Part shown: positions 45,817 to 52,260 of the stretch, piece after piece | Numbering within the stretch: position 1 is the stretch's first letter | How the letters are laid out: the number at the start of each line of letters is the position of its first letter | DNA from: a virus | DNA length: 64,000 nt | Strand: one strand, 5' to 3' | Virus record (IMG/VR): IMGVR_UViG_2513237163_000001 | Span: 3,708 to 67,707 of that record | Program-made: the position numbers and the translations under genes | The notes under the pieces: generated by a model | Database searches by the model: none | Told to the model about the DNA's origin: nothing | What the model saw: only the letters and a program-made list of their open reading frames with translations

Positions 45817-46055
45817 GTCGCGTTGCTCCTTATCCAATCCCGCCGGGCCGCCGCTTGGTCCGCGGCGATCGGCGCGTGCTTGTCGCAGTTGCGCGCCTGT
45901 TCCGCCGGCTCCCAGTGCAGCGCCAGGGTTTCCTTCGCGCACCTCCCCATGCCGATGCGCGCGTGGGCTACGTCGCTCGCTCGGTAGTGCGCCTCACCCT
46001 CGGCCGTGCGGGGCTTTAGGGTGAAGTGCTGGCAGGAGATGCAGGTGACTGTCAT
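45813..46055 (-). CDS. Cys-containing hypothetical protein (80 aa)
   Basis: MTVTCISCQHF..GRC..RNC. Confidence 0.55.
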   Translation of the reverse strand: MTVTCISCQHFTLKPRTAEGEAHYRASDVAHARIGMGRCAKETLALHWEPAEQARNCDKHAPIAADQAAARRDWIRSNAT

Positions 46056-46768
46056 GCGTGAGCCGGGTCCGCCATGCCGAGCGCGCTGCGCGCCATCTTC
46101 GCCGTCATGAAGGCCAGCTTCTCACCGGCTTTCTGGCGATCCAGAATCCGCTGCGCCCACAACTTGTTGCCCGGCACCCTGGTGGTGGCACGCACTTGTT
46201 CTACGGCAGCCTTCACCCGCTCGGGGTCCGCGCGGGTCTGCCCGGGAGCCGGCAGGGCCACGAGGCGCGGCGGCACAGGCTGGACTCCGCCCGCCAGCAC
46301 CGAATCCAGCGCGGCGGTGAAGCGCTTGATGAGCGAGTCGCGCGAAGAGTTGAGCATCTCGAACTCGCCAACCTTGATCGCGGCCCAGTAGAAGGCGGGG
46401 TTGGTCCACTCGTCCCTACCTTCGGCGCGGAGGCGCAGTTGCTGCGCGGCTTCGTAGAGTGCCGAGTCGTAGTCGACCTGAGGGCGGCAGATTTTCAAGA
46501 ACCGCGGGAGCGTCGGCGGCGCGTCGACCGATTTCAGCGCAGCGACGCCCTGCCTCAATTCCTCGCGCGACAACTGCGCCAACTCCACGCCCCACAACCG
46601 GCGAACCGTCGTGAGATCCGTTCCGCGCCACATGTCAGCAAACTTTGAGCCGTACATCGCGGACATCTTCTCGAACAGACTGTTCACCCAAGTTTCCGGC
46701 ACGGCGTCAGCCGGCCAATCAATCGACGAGGCGGGCTTCAACGTCGAATGCGTCATCGGTGCGTTCAT
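46052..46768 (-). CDS. Replication protein P-like helicase loader
   Basis: LFEKMSAMYGSKFAD.W..PPTLPRFLKICRP, downstream of initiator. Confidence 0.7.
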   Translation of the reverse strand: MNAPMTHSTLKPASSIDWPADAVPETWVNSLFEKMSAMYGSKFADMWRGTDLTTVRRLWGVELAQLSREELRQGVAALKSVDAPPTLPRFLKICRPQVDYDSALYEAAQQLRLRAEGRDEWTNPAFYWAAIKVGEFEMLNSSRDSLIKRFTAALDSVLAGGVQPVPPRLVALPAPGQTRADPERVKAAVEQVRATTRVPGNKLWAQRILDRQKAGEKLAFMTAKMARSALGMADPAHA

Positions 46769-47573
46769 AGGTCGGCTTCCTGCCGGTCAGCCCGGCGATA
46801 GTGTCGGCGCGCTCTTGCGCCCAGTCAGTGGAGCGTGGCCCGCTGCCATGGCCGGCTGCGCGCGGAGCGCGGTCCTGTGCCCGAGCGAACCAGTTGGTGA
46901 GAAATCGCTTGTAGTTGGATTTGGCGTTAGCCGGGTTGGCAACCAGCCATGCCCCTGCCCGGTTGATCTCGCGAAGCAGATCGAGCGCCGGATAGGCGTC
47001 GGACCATAGCTGCGTCAGTTGCGGCGTGATGCCAGAGAACTTTCCCGTTTCCAGGTTGAAGCCCAAAGCCGAGGCTCGCGCGTTTACCTTCTTCTTGTTC
47101 TTGATAGGTTCTATGACAGGTTCATGCCCGGCATTTTCTGCCGGTGGTAACGCACCTTTTTTGCCTGAGGCAGAAATTGCCGGTGGTTGTTTTTTGCCTG
47201 AGGCAGAAATTGCCGGTTGATCGTCGCAGTCGTCATCGCCGAATCCCTCATAAATCGAAGGGCCGCAAGACGTTTCCTCAAGTGGGAAAGTCGCTGGGGG
47301 CATGCTGAGGTTCAGCCACATGGCATCGGTCGTGCGCGTGCCATCCGGGCGGAACCGGCGCTTGCGTTGGATGTAGCCGCCGCTCTCCAGGTCATCCAGG
47401 TGATCGCGCAGAGCGCGCAGGCTCATACCCACGCGGCCTGCGAGTTTTGGTTGCGACGGAAAGCAAAAGCCGTTCTCGTCTGCGTACTGAGCAATGCCTG
47501 TCAGCACCCACTTTCTTCCGGGAGGGCCGCCCGGGCTTTGATCCCAGGCCCAGGCCACGGCTTTGAAGCTCAT
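46719..47573 (-). CDS. Replication initiator (O-like, N-terminal HTH)
   Basis: MSFKAVAWAW..ADENGFCFPSQPKLA..; contains internal iterons. Confidence 0.85.
   Translation of the reverse strand: MSFKAVAWAWDQSPGGPPGRKWVLTGIAQYADENGFCFPSQPKLAGRVGMSLRALRDHLDDLESGGYIQRKRRFRPDGTRTTDAMWLNLSMPPATFPLEETSCGPSIYEGFGDDDCDDQPAISASGKKQPPAISASGKKGALPPAENAGHEPVIEPIKNKKKVNARASALGFNLETGKFSGITPQLTQLWSDAYPALDLLREINRAGAWLVANPANAKSNYKRFLTNWFARAQDRAPRAAGHGSGPRSTDWAQERADTIAGLTGRKPTYERTDDAFDVEARLVD
47157..47217. repeat. Two identical 28-bp iterons (probable origin)
   Basis: TTTTTTGCCTGAGGCAGAAATTGCCGGT at 47157-47184 and 47190-47217. Confidence 0.75.
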
Positions 47574-47872: not shown

Positions 47873-47980
47873 CATTTCGTCGTTGCTTCTGCGCAAGTGG
47901 AAGCTCGGCCGGATAGGCTGGGAGGCTCTTTTCTGGTCGGTGATGAACGATGAAATCGTTGGGTGGAGGCCCAAACAGAC

Positions 47981-48487
47981 ATGAAGCTGAACGAGCAGAT
48001 CGGGATTGCGAGGGAGGCGCGGGGACTATCCCGCGACGATCTCGCAGAGCATTTAGGGGTCTCGAAAACTTCCGTGGTGTGGTGGGAAGAGGGCAAACAC
48101 GCCCCTCGCCTTCCCATGCTGCGGAAGATCGAAACCATCCTGGAAACCAAGTTCAACGCTACCGGGACTGAGCTCGCTGAGGGTCAATCAGCAGCTTTTC
48201 CCGGCGTGTCTCCGCAGGACGTGCAACTTGCCGTTGCCATCTCGCGGCTGCCGGCAGCCCAACGGCTTGCCATCCAGACGCTGGTGGAGGCCAGCGCGCC
48301 GGGTGGTGTGCCCGCGGGTGACGCAGTGAAACCGTTCACCGAGATGGTGGAGAACGAGACGCCCCGAAGACCAACTCAACAAGGGCGGAAAATCGTTCAT
48401 GCAACAGAAGACGGTAGTGAATCACTCGGGGTTGAGCGACAACGTAGTGCGCCTCGAAAAAAGGCGACAACAGTTCGTCATCATTGA
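47981..48487 (+). CDS. XRE-family HTH repressor (CI-like, no S24 peptidase domain)
   Basis: IGIAREARGLSRDDLAEHLGVSKTSVVWWEEG; divergent from replication operon. Confidence 0.8.
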   Translation: MKLNEQIGIAREARGLSRDDLAEHLGVSKTSVVWWEEGKHAPRLPMLRKIETILETKFNATGTELAEGQSAAFPGVSPQDVQLAVAISRLPAAQRLAIQTLVEASAPGGVPAGDAVKPFTEMVENETPRRPTQQGRKIVHATEDGSESLGVERQRSAPRKKATTVRHH

Positions 48488-48805: not shown

Positions 48806-49150
48806 GTGCCTACCCCAAGCGATACCAGCGAAACGTTGATCGCCGTGCCGTGAAATGCAGCCAACCTCCGGCGCCGGACTGGGTTGGGATTCGGCAGAGT
48901 AAGCAACGTGACTTTCCCGGGGAGAGACCGGGAGGCCTTTTGAATGGCGGTTGCGCTCAGCCACCAGCCAGAAGACCTCCGTATTGCGCGTGCGGCCGGC
49001 AGATGCCGGGATCTCCCCCAGGTTTGATACTGCCTGGACAGCCCAACGAGGTAGGGTAACGCGCTAGACCTCTGTGCCGGCTCGCGCTCGGGCCGCACAT
49101 CGAAGATCCTGCGCCGCGGGCTTTTCGATGTGCTTAACAGGAGTGAAAGC

Positions 49151-49393
49151 ATGGCATCAAACGTGGAGGAGCGCATCAAGCGCGTGGTGGCGGAGCAATT
49201 TGGCGTGGCTCTGGCATGCGTCAAGAACGATTCGAATTTCGTTGACGACTTCGGCGCCGATTCCCTGGATGCAGTCGAGCTCGTCATGGCTCTGGAAGAC
49301 GAATTTGGCGGCGAGATCTCCGACGACGAAGCCGACAAGATTGAAACGGTCCAACAAGCGATCGACTACGTCAACGCTCACGTTCCGGCCTGA
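49151..49393 (+). CDS. acpP: Acyl carrier protein (80 aa)
   Basis: [19 protein letters not shown] with phosphopantetheine Ser; AGGAG SD. Confidence 0.95.
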
Positions 49394-49425
49394 ATGATGG
49401 TGACAGCCTGGAGAGACGGGCATAT

Positions 49426-49500
49426 GGAGCGATCGTCTATCGGTCAGGACACCGGGTTTTCATCCCGGTAAGCGGGGTTCGATTCCCCGTCGCTCTACCA
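49426..49500 (+). tRNA. trnE: tRNA-Glu (UUC)
   Basis: Acceptor GGAGCGA/TCGCTCT, anticodon arm CCGGG-TTTTCAT-CCCGG, TTCGATT loop, encoded CCA. Confidence 0.93.
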
Positions 49501-49506
49501 GTTTTT

Positions 49507-49583
<77 letters not shown>

Positions 49584-50600
49584 GCATTGCAGTAGTGACG
49601 AGCCGATAGACGTTGCGCGATGGACAGGAGTAGCGCGGGGAGGAGCACCAAATGCCGCGAACAAACGATGGGATCGCAAAAACGATGAGGCGCCGAGGAC
49701 GGAAGGCAGATGCCGTGACAGCCGGGAGAGACCGGCACCCTGAAACATGGATAGCGGGCGGCTGATCACCGCCGGAATGCTCGGACAGCTGGAGTAGCGC
49801 CCAGCATCCATGCTTGAGGGTGACAGCCAGGAAGCGCGCACAACGCCGTGGGCCAAAAGCTAATGCGGCGCCGGCATGGGATGCCGGACAGAAGCCGTGC
49901 TTACTGCCGCCGCGAGAGCGGATTCCCTCAATAATCGCACCCGCTCCAACCTGCAAGGATACGGCAGGCCATCACCGGGCAAAGTGATGGGAGGTTAGAC
50001 GGCGACTCCGCAAGCCGTACGTGTCTGGCGGAATGCGGAGAGCGCGCCAACGCTTGATGCTGACAGCCGGGAACAGTACCGGCACCTTCACGCATGGCGA
50101 TTGGTGCAGATCAGCGCACCCCGGGCACTGTAGTTAAAGTGGCACCAGTCGCCATGACGTGAGGGTGCGTTACGACAGCAGCGATCAAGGTGCGAAAGCA
50201 GGGCCGCGCCCTTAAACCTTGGTCGCAGCCGCGGGTGGGAATCCTGCAGCACCCACCACATTGCCTGCCGCTCACATGACGGTGTGAGCCTCGGGTGATC
50301 TAGGAAAGGCGCGGTAAATCTCGTGAAAAAACCGCGCGCCCCTCCACAAGAGGCCAACCCGGAGTTGGATAGCAAAGAGAGGCCGAGAGTAGCGGTAAGC
50401 CTGGGGACGCCCAGGCCCTTCATGTTTGGCGACTGGTGCGCCTGCAGCGCAGCCGTTGCCGGAGTCGGCCGTAAAACCGCCAGCCGCCAAACACGAGGGA
50501 ATGCGCAGTGCTGATGCGCTATATGGCCAACACCCAATCCAGATGGGAAAGTCGCGTGCGGCTTGTTGGCCTTCTGGTATGCCGGGGATCAGTGCCGGCC
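49584..50600 (+). ncRNA. Candidate large structured ncRNA region
   Basis: No credible ORF; repeated GACAG-hairpin modules, long closing stems and a tRNA-like unit ending ACCA. Confidence 0.5.
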
Positions 50601-50608
50601 CCTCTACC

Positions 50609-51160
50609 CTATTCCGTCACGCAATTGACCGTGCCCGTCACCGAGAACGGCACGCGATCGCACCTGGTGCGCACCGGGGCGCTGGGCGCGGCGTGCGCCC
50701 GGGATGGCATCCAGCCAGATGGCGAACTGTCATAGGGCATCGGCCATGCTGGGCCCGAGCTGGAGCGCGACACCTCTACCCTCATCCTCGCCTCGTCTCG
50801 ACGATCAAGAATGGCAATGATGGCGTCCTTGGCGCGGTCTTCTGAAATCGCCTTGCGATCCAGTGCCTCGGTAACCTGCCACAGCGACTTGAGAGCGAGG
50901 TTGGTGATATTCACGTACACCGCCGGGTCGTCGCCGGATCGCTCAACCGCATAGACAGAGCAGACGGCGGCGAGCCGGGCCGGCATCTGAATGTAGGGAT
51001 TGCAGAAGCGATCAATCTGCTCTCCCGTTGCGCGCACCCGCTGGGTCTTCGTCTGCTTGGCAAACGCCAGGCCGAACTGGGCATCCTCTGTCGGCCCGGC
51101 CGCCGCGGCACAGCTCGCAATCAGCGCGGCCAGCGCGCCGGCAATCCATCTCGCGGCCAT
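50609..51160 (-). CDS. Putative lipoprotein/exported moron protein
   Basis: MAARWIAGALAALIASC: basic residue, hydrophobic core, lipobox IASC; GGGAG SD. Confidence 0.55.
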   Translation of the reverse strand: MAARWIAGALAALIASCAAAAGPTEDAQFGLAFAKQTKTQRVRATGEQIDRFCNPYIQMPARLAAVCSVYAVERSGDDPAVYVNITNLALKSLWQVTEALDRKAISEDRAKDAIIAILDRRDEARMRVEVSRSSSGPAWPMPYDSSPSGWMPSRAHAAPSAPVRTRCDRVPFSVTGTVNCVTE

Positions 51161-51246
51161 TGTTCGCTCCCTGTTGTTGGCTCGTGCGCTGAATCATATA
51201 TCCCACGTCCGAGCGGTAAATCCCTCCGACTGGGTGGAATTTGCAA

Positions 51247-51335
51247 CCAAGTTTTGCTTGGTGGATCGTAAGTTTTACTTGTACTGAGTAAGATATTCAC
51301 GCATCATTGACAGTGTGTTCCGGCGGGTCTAAGAT
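51247..51335 (+). promoter_or_regulatory. Tandem promoters with operator upstream of antirepressor
   Basis: TTGACA (51307)-17-TAAGAT (51330); upstream TTGTAC-17-CATCAT overlapped by ACTTG-N7-TAAGA (51277-51293). Confidence 0.75.
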
Positions 51336-51336
51336 T

Positions 51337-51560
51337 CCCATCATCACTGAGACAAAGGTGATACGGGCTTGGTCGTCCGGAACAGTTGGCGCAACTAACA
51401 AAGCCGCGCCGAAATTGCATGCGGCTTTTTTGTTTGCGATCGCTTGGCATCATCTCCTATGGTGGGCCGGGCGGGGACACCCGCAAGGGTGTGCCGGTGC
51501 CAACTACCGGTCGACCAACCCCGTTTCGGTCCACCACCCCGTTTGGTCGCGGGGCGGCGG
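51337..51560 (+). ncRNA. C4-type antisense RNA / ash-icd-like leader
   Basis: TTGGTCGTCCGGAACAGTTGGC (51369-51390) is near-complementary to GCCAACTACCGGTCGACCAA (51499-51518); terminator GCCGC..GCGGCTTTTTT; ATGGTGGGCCGGGCGGGG..CCGCAAGG layout as in P1 c4/P4 CI regions. Confidence 0.65.
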
Positions 51561-51588
51561 AATCAAAACCGCTTAGTTGGAGCCCATC

Positions 51589-52260
51589 ATGCCGGCACCG
51601 TCCCTCCTGTCGTTCAATTTCCAAGAATCTAATTCAGTCCGCGTTGTCATCGTTGATGGCGAGCCGTGGTTTGCTGCAACCGACGTTTGCAGGATCCTCG
51701 GGTACCGCGACGCCTTCAATGCGACGCGTCTCCTGGACGAGGATGAAAAGGGTACTCACATTCTGAGCACCCTTGGTGGCGAGCAAGTACTGTCCATCAT
51801 AAACGAGTCAGGCCTCTATGCCCTCGTCATTCGCAGCCGCAAGCCAGAAGCGAGGCGCTTCCGTAAGTGGGTGACCTCCGAAGTCATCCCCTCCATCCGC
51901 AAGACCGGCAGCTACACCCTGCCCTCCCAACTTCCCCGCATCACCCACCCCGAGCCCCAACCGGCCCACCCCATCAAGCCGTCCGACTACAAGAATCTTG
52001 AAGGGCGCGTCCATCTCCTCGCGGGCTACTTCGGCAGGAAAGAATCCACCAGCCGCGCCATTTGGGCTCACCTGCGCGAGCAGCTCGGCGTGCGCGTGAC
52101 GATCCGCAACCTGCCCGCCGACCGGCTCGATGATGCGCAGCAGATCCTCTCCGACCTCCAGACCAGCGTGCGGCCCTATATCCGCGCGCGCAACGAGTTC
52201 GACCGCGCCTGGCTGCAACGCCTGCTGGGCGGATCCGCAAGCACTGACCTCCTCCACTGA
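51589..52260 (+). CDS. Bro-N domain antirepressor (223 aa)
   Basis: VRVVIVDGEPWFAATDVCRILG..INESGLYALVIRSRKPEARRFRKWVTSEVIPSIRKTGSY. Confidence 0.9.
   Translation: MPAPSLLSFNFQESNSVRVVIVDGEPWFAATDVCRILGYRDAFNATRLLDEDEKGTHILSTLGGEQVLSIINESGLYALVIRSRKPEARRFRKWVTSEVIPSIRKTGSYTLPSQLPRITHPEPQPAHPIKPSDYKNLEGRVHLLAGYFGRKESTSRAIWAHLREQLGVRVTIRNLPADRLDDAQQILSDLQTSVRPYIRARNEFDRAWLQRLLGGSASTDLLH

What the first reader, a model, noticed from the sequence alone, without database searches (positions are those of the whole stretch)
50163..50258. tRNA-mimic: acceptor stem, T-arm and ACCA end, but a branched domain instead of D and anticodon arms
Seen: GGGTGC (50163) pairs with GCACCC (50249-50254), followed by A-CCA. 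The T-like arm is GCGGG-TGGGAAT-CCTGC. The interior is GATCAAGG/CCTTGGTC enclosing TGC-GAAA-GCA and GGGC-CGC-GCCC. Known: tmRNA and viral tRNA-like structures keep only the acceptor/T half. Inference: a processed tRNA-like RNA that could be aminoacylated or decoy tRNA-targeting toxins.
Basis: partly seen in the sequence, partly recalled or inferred. Interest (0 to 1): 0.6.

Follow-up and report, generated by a model that had tools for sequence, protein, structure and literature searches.

The report
Anticodon-less tRNA look-alike in prophage RNA array
A prophage carries, just after its own two tRNA genes, a 96-base element that copies the top half of a tRNA (with the same acceptor stem as the host's valine tRNA) but has no anticodon. 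It is one unit of a chain of folded RNAs that many phages carry, and whether it is made and used is untested.

Summary
Window 50163-50258 (+) folds alone exactly as described: a 6-bp acceptor stem, a 5-bp/7-nt T-arm abutting it, a 13-bp rod with two small hairpins, and a 3' ACCA. Its energy z-score is about -3. This tRNA top-half geometry occurs in about 0.03 of shuffled windows.

It is not a tRNA, tmRNA or any Rfam family, and no overlapping ORF has a family match. It lies in a prophage, in about 1 kb of non-coding DNA after phage tRNA-Glu and tRNA-Asp.

That DNA is a modular array. Conserved long hairpins (here called E) alternate with closed, structured units (here called K). In about 50 phage and metagenome loci the slot after E holds K units with strong covariation. 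In some loci it holds a real tRNA or a tRNA with an insert. The candidate fills this slot. Its acceptor stem, discriminator and CCA match the host tRNA-Val(UAC).

Three points count against it. No homologue was found, so there is no covariation for this element. No usable expression data exist. In the unprocessed transcript its 5' strand is predicted to pair upstream instead.

Best reading (about 0.4): a tRNA-derived handle carrying a cargo domain, matured by tRNA-processing enzymes. Charging and decoy roles are unsupported. Earlier notes of this scan describe similar phage tRNA-like arrays on other DNA.

The parts
50163..50258 (+). The candidate: a 96-nt tRNA top-half look-alike (acceptor stem, 9-nt single-stranded linker, rod domain, T-like arm, ACCA)
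   Evidence: fold, z -3.2; geometry scan; its model hits true tRNAs; not called by ARAGORN or Rfam
50163..50168 (+). Acceptor-stem 5' strand. It is identical to positions 1-6 of the host tRNA-Val(UAC). It can alternatively pair with 50082-50087.
50249..50258 (+). Acceptor-stem 3' strand (50249-50254), discriminator A50255 and CCA (50256-50258). The last 12 nt are identical to the host tRNA-Val(UAC).
50231..50247 (+). T-like arm: a 5-bp stem and a 7-nt loop that keeps U at position 1 and A at position 5 but has GG where tRNAs have psi-C. The 31-nt 3' part is 74% identical to the 3' part of the neighbouring phage tRNA-Asp.
   Evidence: repeat D2
50178..50229 (+). Rod domain replacing the D and anticodon arms: a 13-bp helix with one A/A mismatch, ending in a three-way junction with a GNRA-tetraloop hairpin and a triloop hairpin. 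There is no 7-nt anticodon-type loop.
50088..50162 (+). E1: a conserved long hairpin that ends one base before the candidate. Homologous to Burkholderia phage Bcep22 (79% over 87 nt) and to about 50 phage and metagenome loci.
50082..50087 (+). Upstream segment complementary to the candidate's acceptor 5' strand. Pairing here extends E1 to about 26 bp and excludes the acceptor stem.
49992..50090 (+). Degenerate K-like unit preceding E1. It ends in a GA-rich-loop hairpin followed by a strand similar to the candidate's 3' strand.
   Evidence: 10.5 bits, E 0.07: weak
50302..50422 (+). Second degenerate K-like unit
   Evidence: 11 bits, E 0.05: weak
50417..50499 (+). E2: a second E-type hairpin (20-nt inverted-repeat arms)
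   Evidence: (I1)
50495..50607 (+). Canonical K unit: closing stem, 5' hairpin, branched middle domain, and a 3' hairpin stacked on the closing stem, with complementary loops
   Evidence: (51.6 bits, E 3e-11)
49426..49583 (+). Phage tRNA-Glu(UUC) and tRNA-Asp(GUC) at the head of the array

Best explanation
The element is a tRNA-derived module of a prophage non-coding RNA array. It keeps the acceptor/T-arm half of a tRNA, with the acceptor stem of tRNA-Val and an encoded ACCA. Its D and anticodon arms are replaced by a rod-shaped cargo domain.

The inferred mechanism has three steps.
1. The array is transcribed with the phage tRNA-Glu and tRNA-Asp.
2. Once the upstream E1 hairpin is cut or folded away, the acceptor/T-arm stack forms. 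The host tRNA-maturation enzymes then treat it like a pre-tRNA. RNase P would cut between 50162 and 50163, and 3' trimming would stop at the ACCA.
3. This releases a stable RNA of about 96 nt and at the same stroke defines the 3' end of the E1 hairpin RNA.

The tRNA half would thus serve as a processing and stability handle, as in engineered tRNA scaffolds, plant t-elements or MALAT1/mascRNA. The rod domain would be the working part, with an unknown partner.

Shown: the fold of the isolated sequence, its tRNA-like geometry, the array context and the identity to the tRNA-Val acceptor. Inferred: transcription, cleavage sites, stability and any function.
For: 1. The isolated fold is stable and has exact tRNA top-half geometry: 6 bp plus a G/A mismatch at 7-66, a T-stem abutting position 66, a 7-nt loop with U1/A5, and A73-CCA. 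The chance rate is 0.03 per shuffled window.
2. A single-sequence model of it finds true tRNAs as its best matches in 527 kb of phage loci, for example 26 bits at E 0.001.
3. Its acceptor 5' hexamer and its last 12 nt are identical to the host tRNA-Val(UAC). Its 3' 31 nt are 74% identical to the adjacent phage tRNA-Asp.
4. The context is a prophage RNA array directly behind two phage tRNAs. No overlapping ORF has a Pfam or PHROG match.
5. The candidate starts at the first base after the conserved E hairpin.
   - In L232, a tRNA-Glu begins one intervening base after E (E ends at 929, the tRNA starts at 931).
   - In L221, a sequence that passes the Rfam tRNA threshold (38 bits) starts in that slot.
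   - L058, L076 and L251 hold closed units with T-arm-like 3' hairpins there.
6. The common slot occupant, the K unit, has a closing stem with a hairpin stacked directly on its 3' strand. It has strong covariation: 99.4% of cells paired, 10 of 20 pairs with compensatory changes, 0 of 500 shuffles as good. A closing stem of this kind is therefore a family feature.
7. The same prophage has a C4 antisense RNA. From my own knowledge, that class is matured by RNase P, which gives a precedent.
Against: - No homologue of this element was found: not in 24+77 genomes of the genus, 400 of the class, the phage collection, or IMG/VR pattern scans. Nothing shows that selection keeps its pairing.
- There is no expression evidence. 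The runs labelled RNA that hold the locus contain it on a 110-kb contig, so they are DNA, and two raw RNA runs lack the prophage.
- In the precursor the acceptor 5' strand is predicted to pair with 50082-50087. The acceptor pair probability is 0.001, and forcing the acceptor costs about 4.8 kcal/mol. Pairing of the flanks across E also covaries in the family.
- The K-family model does not score the candidate.
- In the family the closing stem is usually followed by UCA, so CCA is one substitution away and could be fortuitous.
- A closing stem of the GGGUG type is common among K units. The match to tRNA-Val may therefore partly reflect family ancestry rather than mimicry of this host's tRNA.
Confidence: 0.4

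Rival explanations
1. It is a decaying tRNA gene with no function of its own. A tRNA-Val-type gene of the phage tRNA cluster lost its D and anticodon arms through rearrangement with array modules. The intact-looking top half is what is left.
For: - It is a singleton with no homologue.
- The 5' 16 nt can be aligned with the tRNA-Val 5' end through the start of the D-loop, with one insertion and three substitutions (by eye).
- The T-loop has lost the psi-C positions that dock the D-loop.
- There is a mismatch at 7-66.
- Phage tRNA clusters are known to hold pseudo-tRNAs (own knowledge).
Against: - The replacement domain is a clean 13-bp helix with two capped hairpins, and the whole fold is unusually stable at z -3.2. 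Plain decay would not be expected to produce this.
- The acceptor, T-stem and ACCA are all intact.
- Anticodon-less closed units are the rule in this slot in related arrays and are under selection.
Confidence: 0.25
2. The tRNA-like acceptor stem never forms. The real structures are the extended E1 helix of about 26 bp, which uses 50163-50168 and is probably an RNase III-type processing stem, plus two independent local hairpins (the rod and the T-like hairpin). The tRNA look is a by-product of neighbouring array units sharing similar end sequences.
For: - The MFE and ensemble of the 208-nt and 316-nt contexts pair 50163-50168 with upstream bases at probability of about 1.
- Across 39 loci the three bases before and after E pair with covariation (A-U 15, U-G 13, C-G 10 at the innermost pair).
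Against: - In K units the closure with the unit's own 3' strand is supported over 5 pairs, including positions 4 and 5, where the upstream flank often does not match.
- The energy gap is small at about 5 kcal/mol, and it ignores coaxial stacking and any cleavage.
- In L232 and L221 the slot holds tRNAs whose acceptor stems must form.
Confidence: 0.2
3. It is a working tRNA mimic. The matured RNA is either charged (most plausibly by ValRS) or acts as a decoy for enzymes or toxins that read the acceptor end of tRNA-Val.
For: - The acceptor stem, A73 and CCA are identical to the host tRNA-Val(UAC).
- The CCA is encoded.
- From own knowledge, minihelices with valine identity can be weakly valylated without an anticodon, and toxins that act on tRNA acceptor ends or T-loops exist in this group of bacteria.
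Against: - There is no anticodon-like loop, and the anticodon is the main ValRS determinant (own knowledge).
- No neighbouring gene points to a tRNA-targeting system.
- It is a singleton.
- The GGGUG-type closing stem is common in the K family and so is not specific to this host.
Confidence: 0.08

Closest known systems
STnc100 (Rfam RF02076) and the related PasD prophage small RNAs of Enterobacteria
   Same: - STnc100 passes its Rfam threshold in an enterobacterial phage contig inside the same kind of array (L039 4445-4635, 48.1 bits).
- A weaker copy in a P1-like Leclercia plasmid has, by eye, the same plan as K units: a closing stem, a 5' hairpin, and a 3' hairpin abutting the closing stem.
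- That copy matches unannotated DNA of phage P1.
- The preprint 10.64898/2026.05.13.724894 describes these RNAs as prophage-borne.
   Different: - No Rfam STnc100 match anywhere in window 49300-51700, even at E up to 10.
- The candidate has a 7-nt T-type loop, an encoded ACCA and a rod domain.
- The passages I read of that preprint (a term search on 'STnc100' and 'tRNA') mention tRNA-like sequences only as remnants of prophage integration sites, not a tRNA-like architecture of these sRNAs. They credit PasD and STnc100 with seed regions and sets of targets, that is, base-pairing sRNAs; Hfq binding is my own recollection.
Bacteriophage T4 stable RNAs 'species 1' and 'species 2' of the tRNA cluster (own knowledge)
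   Same: They are non-decoding stable RNAs encoded within a phage tRNA gene cluster, co-transcribed with the tRNAs and matured by the tRNA-processing machinery. Their function is still unknown.
   Different: No sequence relation was tested or expected. The host group is different, and the T4 RNAs are not part of an E/K-type modular array.
C4 antisense RNA of P1/P7-type phages (Rfam RF01695)
   Same: It is a phage small RNA whose paired ends are recognised by RNase P for 5' maturation (own knowledge). A copy lies 1.2 kb downstream in the same prophage (51455-51541, 61.7 bits).
   Different: C4 has no T-arm and a different fold. It has a known antisense target in the ant operon. The candidate does not match the model.
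Processing-signal tRNA mimics: plant mitochondrial t-elements and MALAT1 mascRNA (own knowledge; papers listed, not read)
   Same: These are tRNA-like folds embedded in longer transcripts. Their cleavage by RNase P (and RNase Z) sets the ends of the neighbouring RNA. Here the cut would make the 3' end of E1.
   Different: They are eukaryotic or organellar. mascRNA keeps a cloverleaf. Cleavage has not been shown here.
tRNA-like domain of tmRNA and viral 3' tRNA-like structures
   Same: An acceptor/T-arm stack with a CCA end and no normal D or anticodon arms. The TYMV structure has valine identity (own knowledge).
   Different: ARAGORN finds no tmRNA. No Rfam tmRNA or Tymo_tRNA-like match falls on the candidate. 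There is no tag reading frame, no pseudoknots, and no G3-U70.
Engineered tRNA scaffolds for expressing recombinant RNA in E. coli (own knowledge; PMC3753655 listed, not read)
   Same: A cargo RNA replaces the anticodon arm while the acceptor and T arms ensure correct processing and nuclease resistance. This is the same design logic as the reading proposed here.
   Different: The scaffolds are artificial and keep the D-arm and the D/T-loop contact. The candidate has only a 9-nt linker in place of the D-arm.

Membership tests
tRNA (Rfam RF00005 / ARAGORN) | Cloverleaf with a D-arm and a 7-nt anticodon loop; score above the model threshold | tested here: not met
   ARAGORN calls only tRNA-Glu and tRNA-Asp. 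No RF00005 match falls on 50163-50258 even at E up to 10. The only loops are a tetraloop, a triloop and the T-like loop.
tRNA (Rfam RF00005 / ARAGORN) | 7-bp acceptor stem stacked on a 5-bp T-stem with a 7-nt T-loop, then discriminator and CCA | tested here: met
   There are 6 Watson-Crick pairs plus a G/A at 7-66. The T-stem abuts position 66, the loop has U1 and A5, and A-CCA follows. A model of the candidate retrieves true tRNAs through this part.
tmRNA | tRNA-like domain plus a tag reading frame and pseudoknots; G3-U70 alanine identity | tested here: not met
   ARAGORN finds no tmRNA. No tmRNA-family match falls on the candidate. Pair 3-70 is G-C.
K units of the phage E/K array (model R1 built here; undescribed apart from the STnc100 relatives) | Match to the covariance model: closing stem, 5' hairpin, 3' hairpin stacked on the closing stem, complementary loops | tested here: not met
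   R1 with filters off gives 51.6 bits for 50495-50607 but no match up to E 10 on 50163-50258. The candidate has no 5' hairpin and no complementary loop pair.
K units of the phage E/K array (model R1 built here; undescribed apart from the STnc100 relatives) | Position: a closed unit that starts at the base after the E hairpin | tested here: met
   E1 ends at 50162 and the candidate starts at 50163. The arrangement is the same in about 50 loci.
STnc100 (RF02076) | Score above the Rfam gathering threshold | tested here: not met
   No match in 49300-51700 at E up to 10.
Viral tRNA-like structures (Tymo_tRNA-like RF00233) | Match to the model; pseudoknotted acceptor arm; anticodon mimic | tested here: not met
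   The only weak RF00233 match lies on tRNA-Glu, not on the candidate. The acceptor here is a plain helix.
RNase P substrates (a functional class, not a sequence family) | Acceptor/T-type coaxial stack of about 12 bp with a T-loop and a 3' RCCA; cleavage at -1/+1 | not testable with these tools
   The sequence features are present. Cleavage needs an enzyme assay or end mapping. The competing upstream pairing may prevent it in the precursor.
Bacterial Y RNAs of the YrlA type | Ro-binding stem formed by the RNA's two ends, with a tRNA-like domain at the far end; linkage to rsr | tested here: inconclusive
   The topology is the opposite: here the acceptor stem closes the molecule. No Rfam match of any kind falls on the candidate, but I did not confirm which Y-RNA models the library holds, and rsr linkage was not examined.

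The most novel reading that the evidence does not exclude
The 96-nt RNA is matured by RNase P and the 3'-end machinery. It then acts as a specific stand-in for the acceptor arm of tRNA-Val. Either it is valylated, or it soaks up a toxin or defence enzyme that attacks tRNA acceptor ends or T-loops. More broadly, the whole E/K array family would be a widespread, uncatalogued class of phage RNAs built on the tRNA plan and handled by the tRNA machinery. In K units the D-loop/T-loop corner would be replaced by a base-paired loop-loop contact.
Probability: 0.08. Interest if true: 0.85.

Novelty: new variant of a known kind. Interest (0 to 1): 0.5.

Why it matters
Phages carry tRNA genes, and next to them many unannotated folded RNAs. 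If anticodon-less tRNA look-alikes such as this one are cut out and stabilised by the host's tRNA enzymes, that would explain how phages make sets of small RNAs from one long transcript. It would also give a natural counterpart to the engineered tRNA scaffold.

The family context found here is the more useful result:
- conserved E hairpins;
- K units with covarying stems and loop-loop pairing;
- a slot that can hold real tRNAs.

It links Burkholderia, Caulobacter, cyanobacterial and enterobacterial phages (including P1 and the STnc100/PasD RNAs) and can be tested directly in laboratory lysogens.

The single element itself is unproven. It is a singleton without expression data.

Tried and rejected
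1. Expression. The look-up of sequencing runs gave four runs labelled RNA that hold the locus. Two were laid, and each carries the stretch on a 110,830-base contig at flat depth, so they are DNA in fact. Two raw RNA runs with the same species label had no reads on the stretch. This gives no evidence either way.

2. Homologue searches that found nothing for the candidate:
- 40 relatives, where only tRNA-Asp matched;
- 400 genomes of the class;
- 77 genomes of the genus with model R2;
- the phage and plasmid collections;
- two IMG/VR pattern scans.

4. Coding. Eight ORFs overlapping 49513-50845 have no Pfam or PHROG match.

5. An integration-site remnant, meaning a duplicated tRNA-Asp 3' end, was rejected. 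The repeat is only 74% identical with a 9-nt identical core, and the element has its own matching 5' strand.

6. A group I intron, a self-cleaving ribozyme or a large ornate RNA was considered for the region. There is no Rfam match at E up to 10.

7. A CsrA-sponge reading was considered for the GGA-rich 40-mer module. It was prompted by a CsrA moron in the Bcep22-like phage JC1 (PMC9144972). This genome has no CsrA homologue, so the idea was dropped.

8. ACP-anchored synteny gave 9 viral loci, but none held a match to the candidate model.

Full report
THE OBSERVATION

- The 5' strand at 50163-50168 pairs with 50249-50254. A50255 follows, then CCA at 50256-50258.
- A 5-bp stem (50231-50235 with 50243-50247) encloses a 7-nt loop. 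It ends one base before the acceptor 3' strand, which is the tRNA arrangement with a G/A mismatch at pair 7-66.
- The loop keeps U at position 1 and A at position 5, the T-loop signature. It has GG where tRNAs have the two bases that dock the D-loop.
- Between the acceptor and the T-like arm lie a 9-nt single strand and a 13-bp rod with one A/A mismatch. The rod ends in a three-way junction with a GNRA tetraloop hairpin and a triloop hairpin.

Folded alone, the 96 nt give exactly this structure at -45.7 kcal/mol, against -34.9 for shuffles (z -3.2).

I wrote a generic scan for the tRNA top half: six Watson-Crick acceptor pairs, a directly stacked 5-bp/7-nt arm with U...A, then NCCA. It finds only this site in the real window and 0.03 sites per shuffled window. 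The criteria were set after the fact, and the scan covers very many windows, so this number alone does not settle the matter. The context does more.

THE SURROUNDINGS

The window is a prophage. Its genes and RNAs near the candidate are:
- O/P-like replication genes (46052-47573, minus strand);
- an HTH regulator (47963-48487);
- an acyl carrier protein (49130-49393);
- tRNA-Glu and tRNA-Asp (49426-49583);
- about 1 kb without a credible gene;
- a small minus-strand ORF;
- a C4 antisense RNA with a BRO-N anti-repressor;
- RecT and exonuclease genes;
- a HEARO RNA.

The ORFs that overlap the candidate have no family match. The non-coding kilobase is absent from 40 relatives. Only the tRNA-Asp part matches elsewhere, at about 83% identity, so even the two tRNAs are phage-specific.

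THE ARRAY

The stretch just upstream of the candidate (50079-50165) matches unannotated DNA of Burkholderia phage Bcep22. It is a long hairpin, here called E1 (50088-50162), with compensatory differences between the two phages.

A pattern built from its ends found E in 5 viral contigs and 48 metagenome contigs.

In most of these loci the base after E starts a closed unit, here called K. A K unit has:
- a 5-bp closing stem;
- a 5' hairpin;
- a variable middle;
- a 3' hairpin stacked directly on the closing stem's 3' strand;
- loops in the two hairpins that are complementary to each other.

A covariance model of K (R1) collected 26 units. On that alignment 99.4% of cells pair, 10 of 20 pairs show compensatory changes, and no shuffle of 500 does as well. 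The loop-loop helix has one compensatory change. The alignment was fitted to the model, which favours the structure, but the slid controls fall to about 30-50% paired.

The window has one canonical K at 50495-50607 (51.6 bits), preceded by a second E hairpin (50417-50499). It also has two degenerate K-like stretches at 49992-50090 and 50302-50422.

THE SLOT CAN HOLD tRNAs

- In L232 a tRNA-Glu begins two bases after E ends, with a single intervening base (E ends at 929, the tRNA starts at 931).
- In L221 the slot sequence passes the Rfam tRNA threshold at 38 bits. It has a normal D-arm and T-arm and an insert. Its 7-bp acceptor stem uses the last two bases of E.
- In L223 the E hairpin itself is called tRNA-Gly by ARAGORN.
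- L251 has a K-type 5' hairpin combined with a T-arm-like 3' hairpin. L058 and L076 hold small closed units with T-arm-like 3' hairpins.

The array therefore mixes tRNAs, tRNA derivatives and K units in equivalent positions. The candidate fills the slot after E1.

The K model does not score the candidate, so by the only formal test available it is not a K unit. It shares with K units the position, the closing stem, the hairpin stacked on that stem, and a branched rod as middle domain.

HOW tRNA-LIKE IS IT?

A single-sequence model of the candidate (R2), run over 527 kb of phage loci, has true tRNAs as its best matches. They are aligned through the acceptor, T-arm and ACCA, for example 26 bits at E 0.001.

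Among the 68 tRNAs of the host genome, tRNA-Val(UAC) has the same first six bases and the same last twelve bases. So pairs 1-72 to 6-67, A66, A73 and CCA are all identical. My rough estimate is that a random 6-bp stem matches one of about 45 host acceptor stems 1% of the time. That figure rises for G-rich starts.

The T-stem resembles those of the phage tRNA-Asp and the host tRNA-Thr. By eye, the 5' 16 nt align with the tRNA-Val 5' end up to the start of the D-loop.

One caution applies. A closing stem of the GGGUG type is common among K units in unrelated samples. The likeness may therefore reflect family ancestry rather than mimicry of this host's tRNA. In the family the closing stem is usually followed by UCA, one change away from CCA.

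WHAT SPEAKS AGAINST A WORKING tRNA-LIKE FOLD

First, the element is a singleton. Nothing similar was found in 24+77 genomes of the genus, 400 of the class, the phage and plasmid collections, or IMG/VR pattern scans.

Second, there are no expression data. The runs labelled RNA that hold the locus are whole-genome DNA, and the raw RNA runs tried lack the prophage.

Third, in the precursor the bases 50163-50168 are predicted to pair with 50082-50087. This lengthens E1 to about 26 bp. The acceptor pairs have probability 0.001, and forcing them costs 4.8 kcal/mol. Across 39 loci the three bases on either side of E pair with covariation. Closure with the unit's own 3' strand has support over five pairs, including positions where the upstream flank does not match. 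Both pairings may therefore be used in turn, or the flank match may only reflect the similarity of neighbouring units.

MOST LIKELY MECHANISM

I read the element as a tRNA-derived handle carrying a cargo domain. After the array is transcribed with the phage tRNAs, the extended E helix is a plausible first target for a double-strand-specific nuclease. Once freed, the acceptor/T stack with its ACCA would be a substrate for RNase P and 3' trimming. That would give a stable RNA of about 96 nt and set the 3' end of the E1 RNA.

Precedents, from my own knowledge:
- the RNase P-matured C4 RNA, a copy of which lies in this prophage;
- the stable RNAs of the T4 tRNA cluster;
- DicF, which is cut from a prophage operon. 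A DicF-like match and an STnc100 match lie in an enterobacterial version of this array;
- plant t-elements;
- mascRNA;
- engineered tRNA scaffolds.

Every step after "the sequence can fold this way" is inference. I give this reading 0.4, a functionless tRNA remnant 0.25, an acceptor stem that never forms 0.2, and a charged mimic or decoy 0.08.

WHAT IS KNOWN

The nearest catalogued family is STnc100 (RF02076). Together with PasD it is described as a prophage-borne small RNA of pathogenic E. coli and Salmonella (preprint 10.64898/2026.05.13.724894). It co-occurs in these arrays, and a relative matches unannotated DNA of phage P1. I found no paper that describes the E/K array or its tRNA-like plan. 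That is not proof that none exists.

Earlier AI notes of this scan report anticodon-less tRNA look-alikes and folded-RNA arrays in phages of other hosts. They agree in kind and were not checked here, except that I saw the P1 match myself.

VERDICT

The element is a new variant within a loosely known kind, the non-decoding RNAs of phage tRNA clusters. The element itself is of moderate interest. The family around it is of more interest.

Noticed in passing
window 49690-49742 (+); also L023 about 1501, L024 about 1501, L025-L043: A 40-nt segment followed by a 5-bp hairpin with a GA-rich hexaloop. The segment is over 90% identical in Caulobacter phages CcrPW and CcrColossus (right after their tRNA array), in cyanophages, in Leclercia and Acetobacter plasmids, and in 19 IMG/VR contigs. 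The hairpin stem covaries. No Rfam match and no annotation. A CsrA-sponge idea (three GGA motifs) was dropped because this genome has no CsrA.
   Followed up: partly
window 50495-50607 (+); L206-L253 and others: The K unit, a widespread phage and metagenome RNA. It has a covarying closing stem, two hairpins whose loops are complementary (a 5-bp loop-loop helix with one compensatory change), and a variable middle. With the last two bases of E, the closing stem makes 7 bp followed by an A, like an acceptor stem with a discriminator. It is not in Rfam apart from the distant STnc100.
   Followed up: partly
window 50088-50162 and 50417-50499 (+); Bcep22 AY349011 9177-9262: The E hairpin family: long stems that separate the array units. 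In some metagenome loci (L223, L225, L236) the inside of E carries a D-arm and/or a canonical T-arm, and ARAGORN calls one of them tRNA-Gly. The conserved end sequences were fixed by my search pattern, so their invariance says nothing.
   Followed up: partly
window 49395-49422, 49715-49737, 49815-49832, 50055-50086 (+): A repeated module: a GACAG-containing single strand followed by a hairpin with a purine-rich loop. One copy lies between the ACP stop codon and tRNA-Glu. It resembles the 3' hairpin of K units without the loop-pairing sequence. The candidate's own linker and rod start with a similar motif.
   Followed up: partly
window 51307-51541 (+): A promoter-like site (10 of 12 matches) is followed by an RNA of about 120 nt that ends in a strong terminator, with weak RcsR1 and isrK-like Rfam matches. 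Then come a C4 antisense RNA and a BRO-N anti-repressor gene. This looks like a P1/P7-type c4-ant immunity module in a Bcep22-like prophage.
   Followed up: no
window 49426-49583 versus the rest of the genome: The prophage tRNA-Asp is only about 83% identical to any other tRNA gene of the host or its relatives. It is a phage-specific tRNA rather than a captured host copy.
   Followed up: no
runs X2 and X4: Two public runs filed as RNA-Seq hold this locus on an identical 110,830-base contig at flat depth. They are genomic DNA in practice and may be the source strain.
   Followed up: no
L076 225-280; L246 1099-1175; L039 4395-4446: Other small-RNA matches lie beside E/K arrays in other loci: a Betaproteobacteria toxic sRNA (41.6 bits, below threshold), a Burkholderiales-2 RNA (76 bits, above threshold), and a DicF-like match (29 bits, below threshold).
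   Followed up: no
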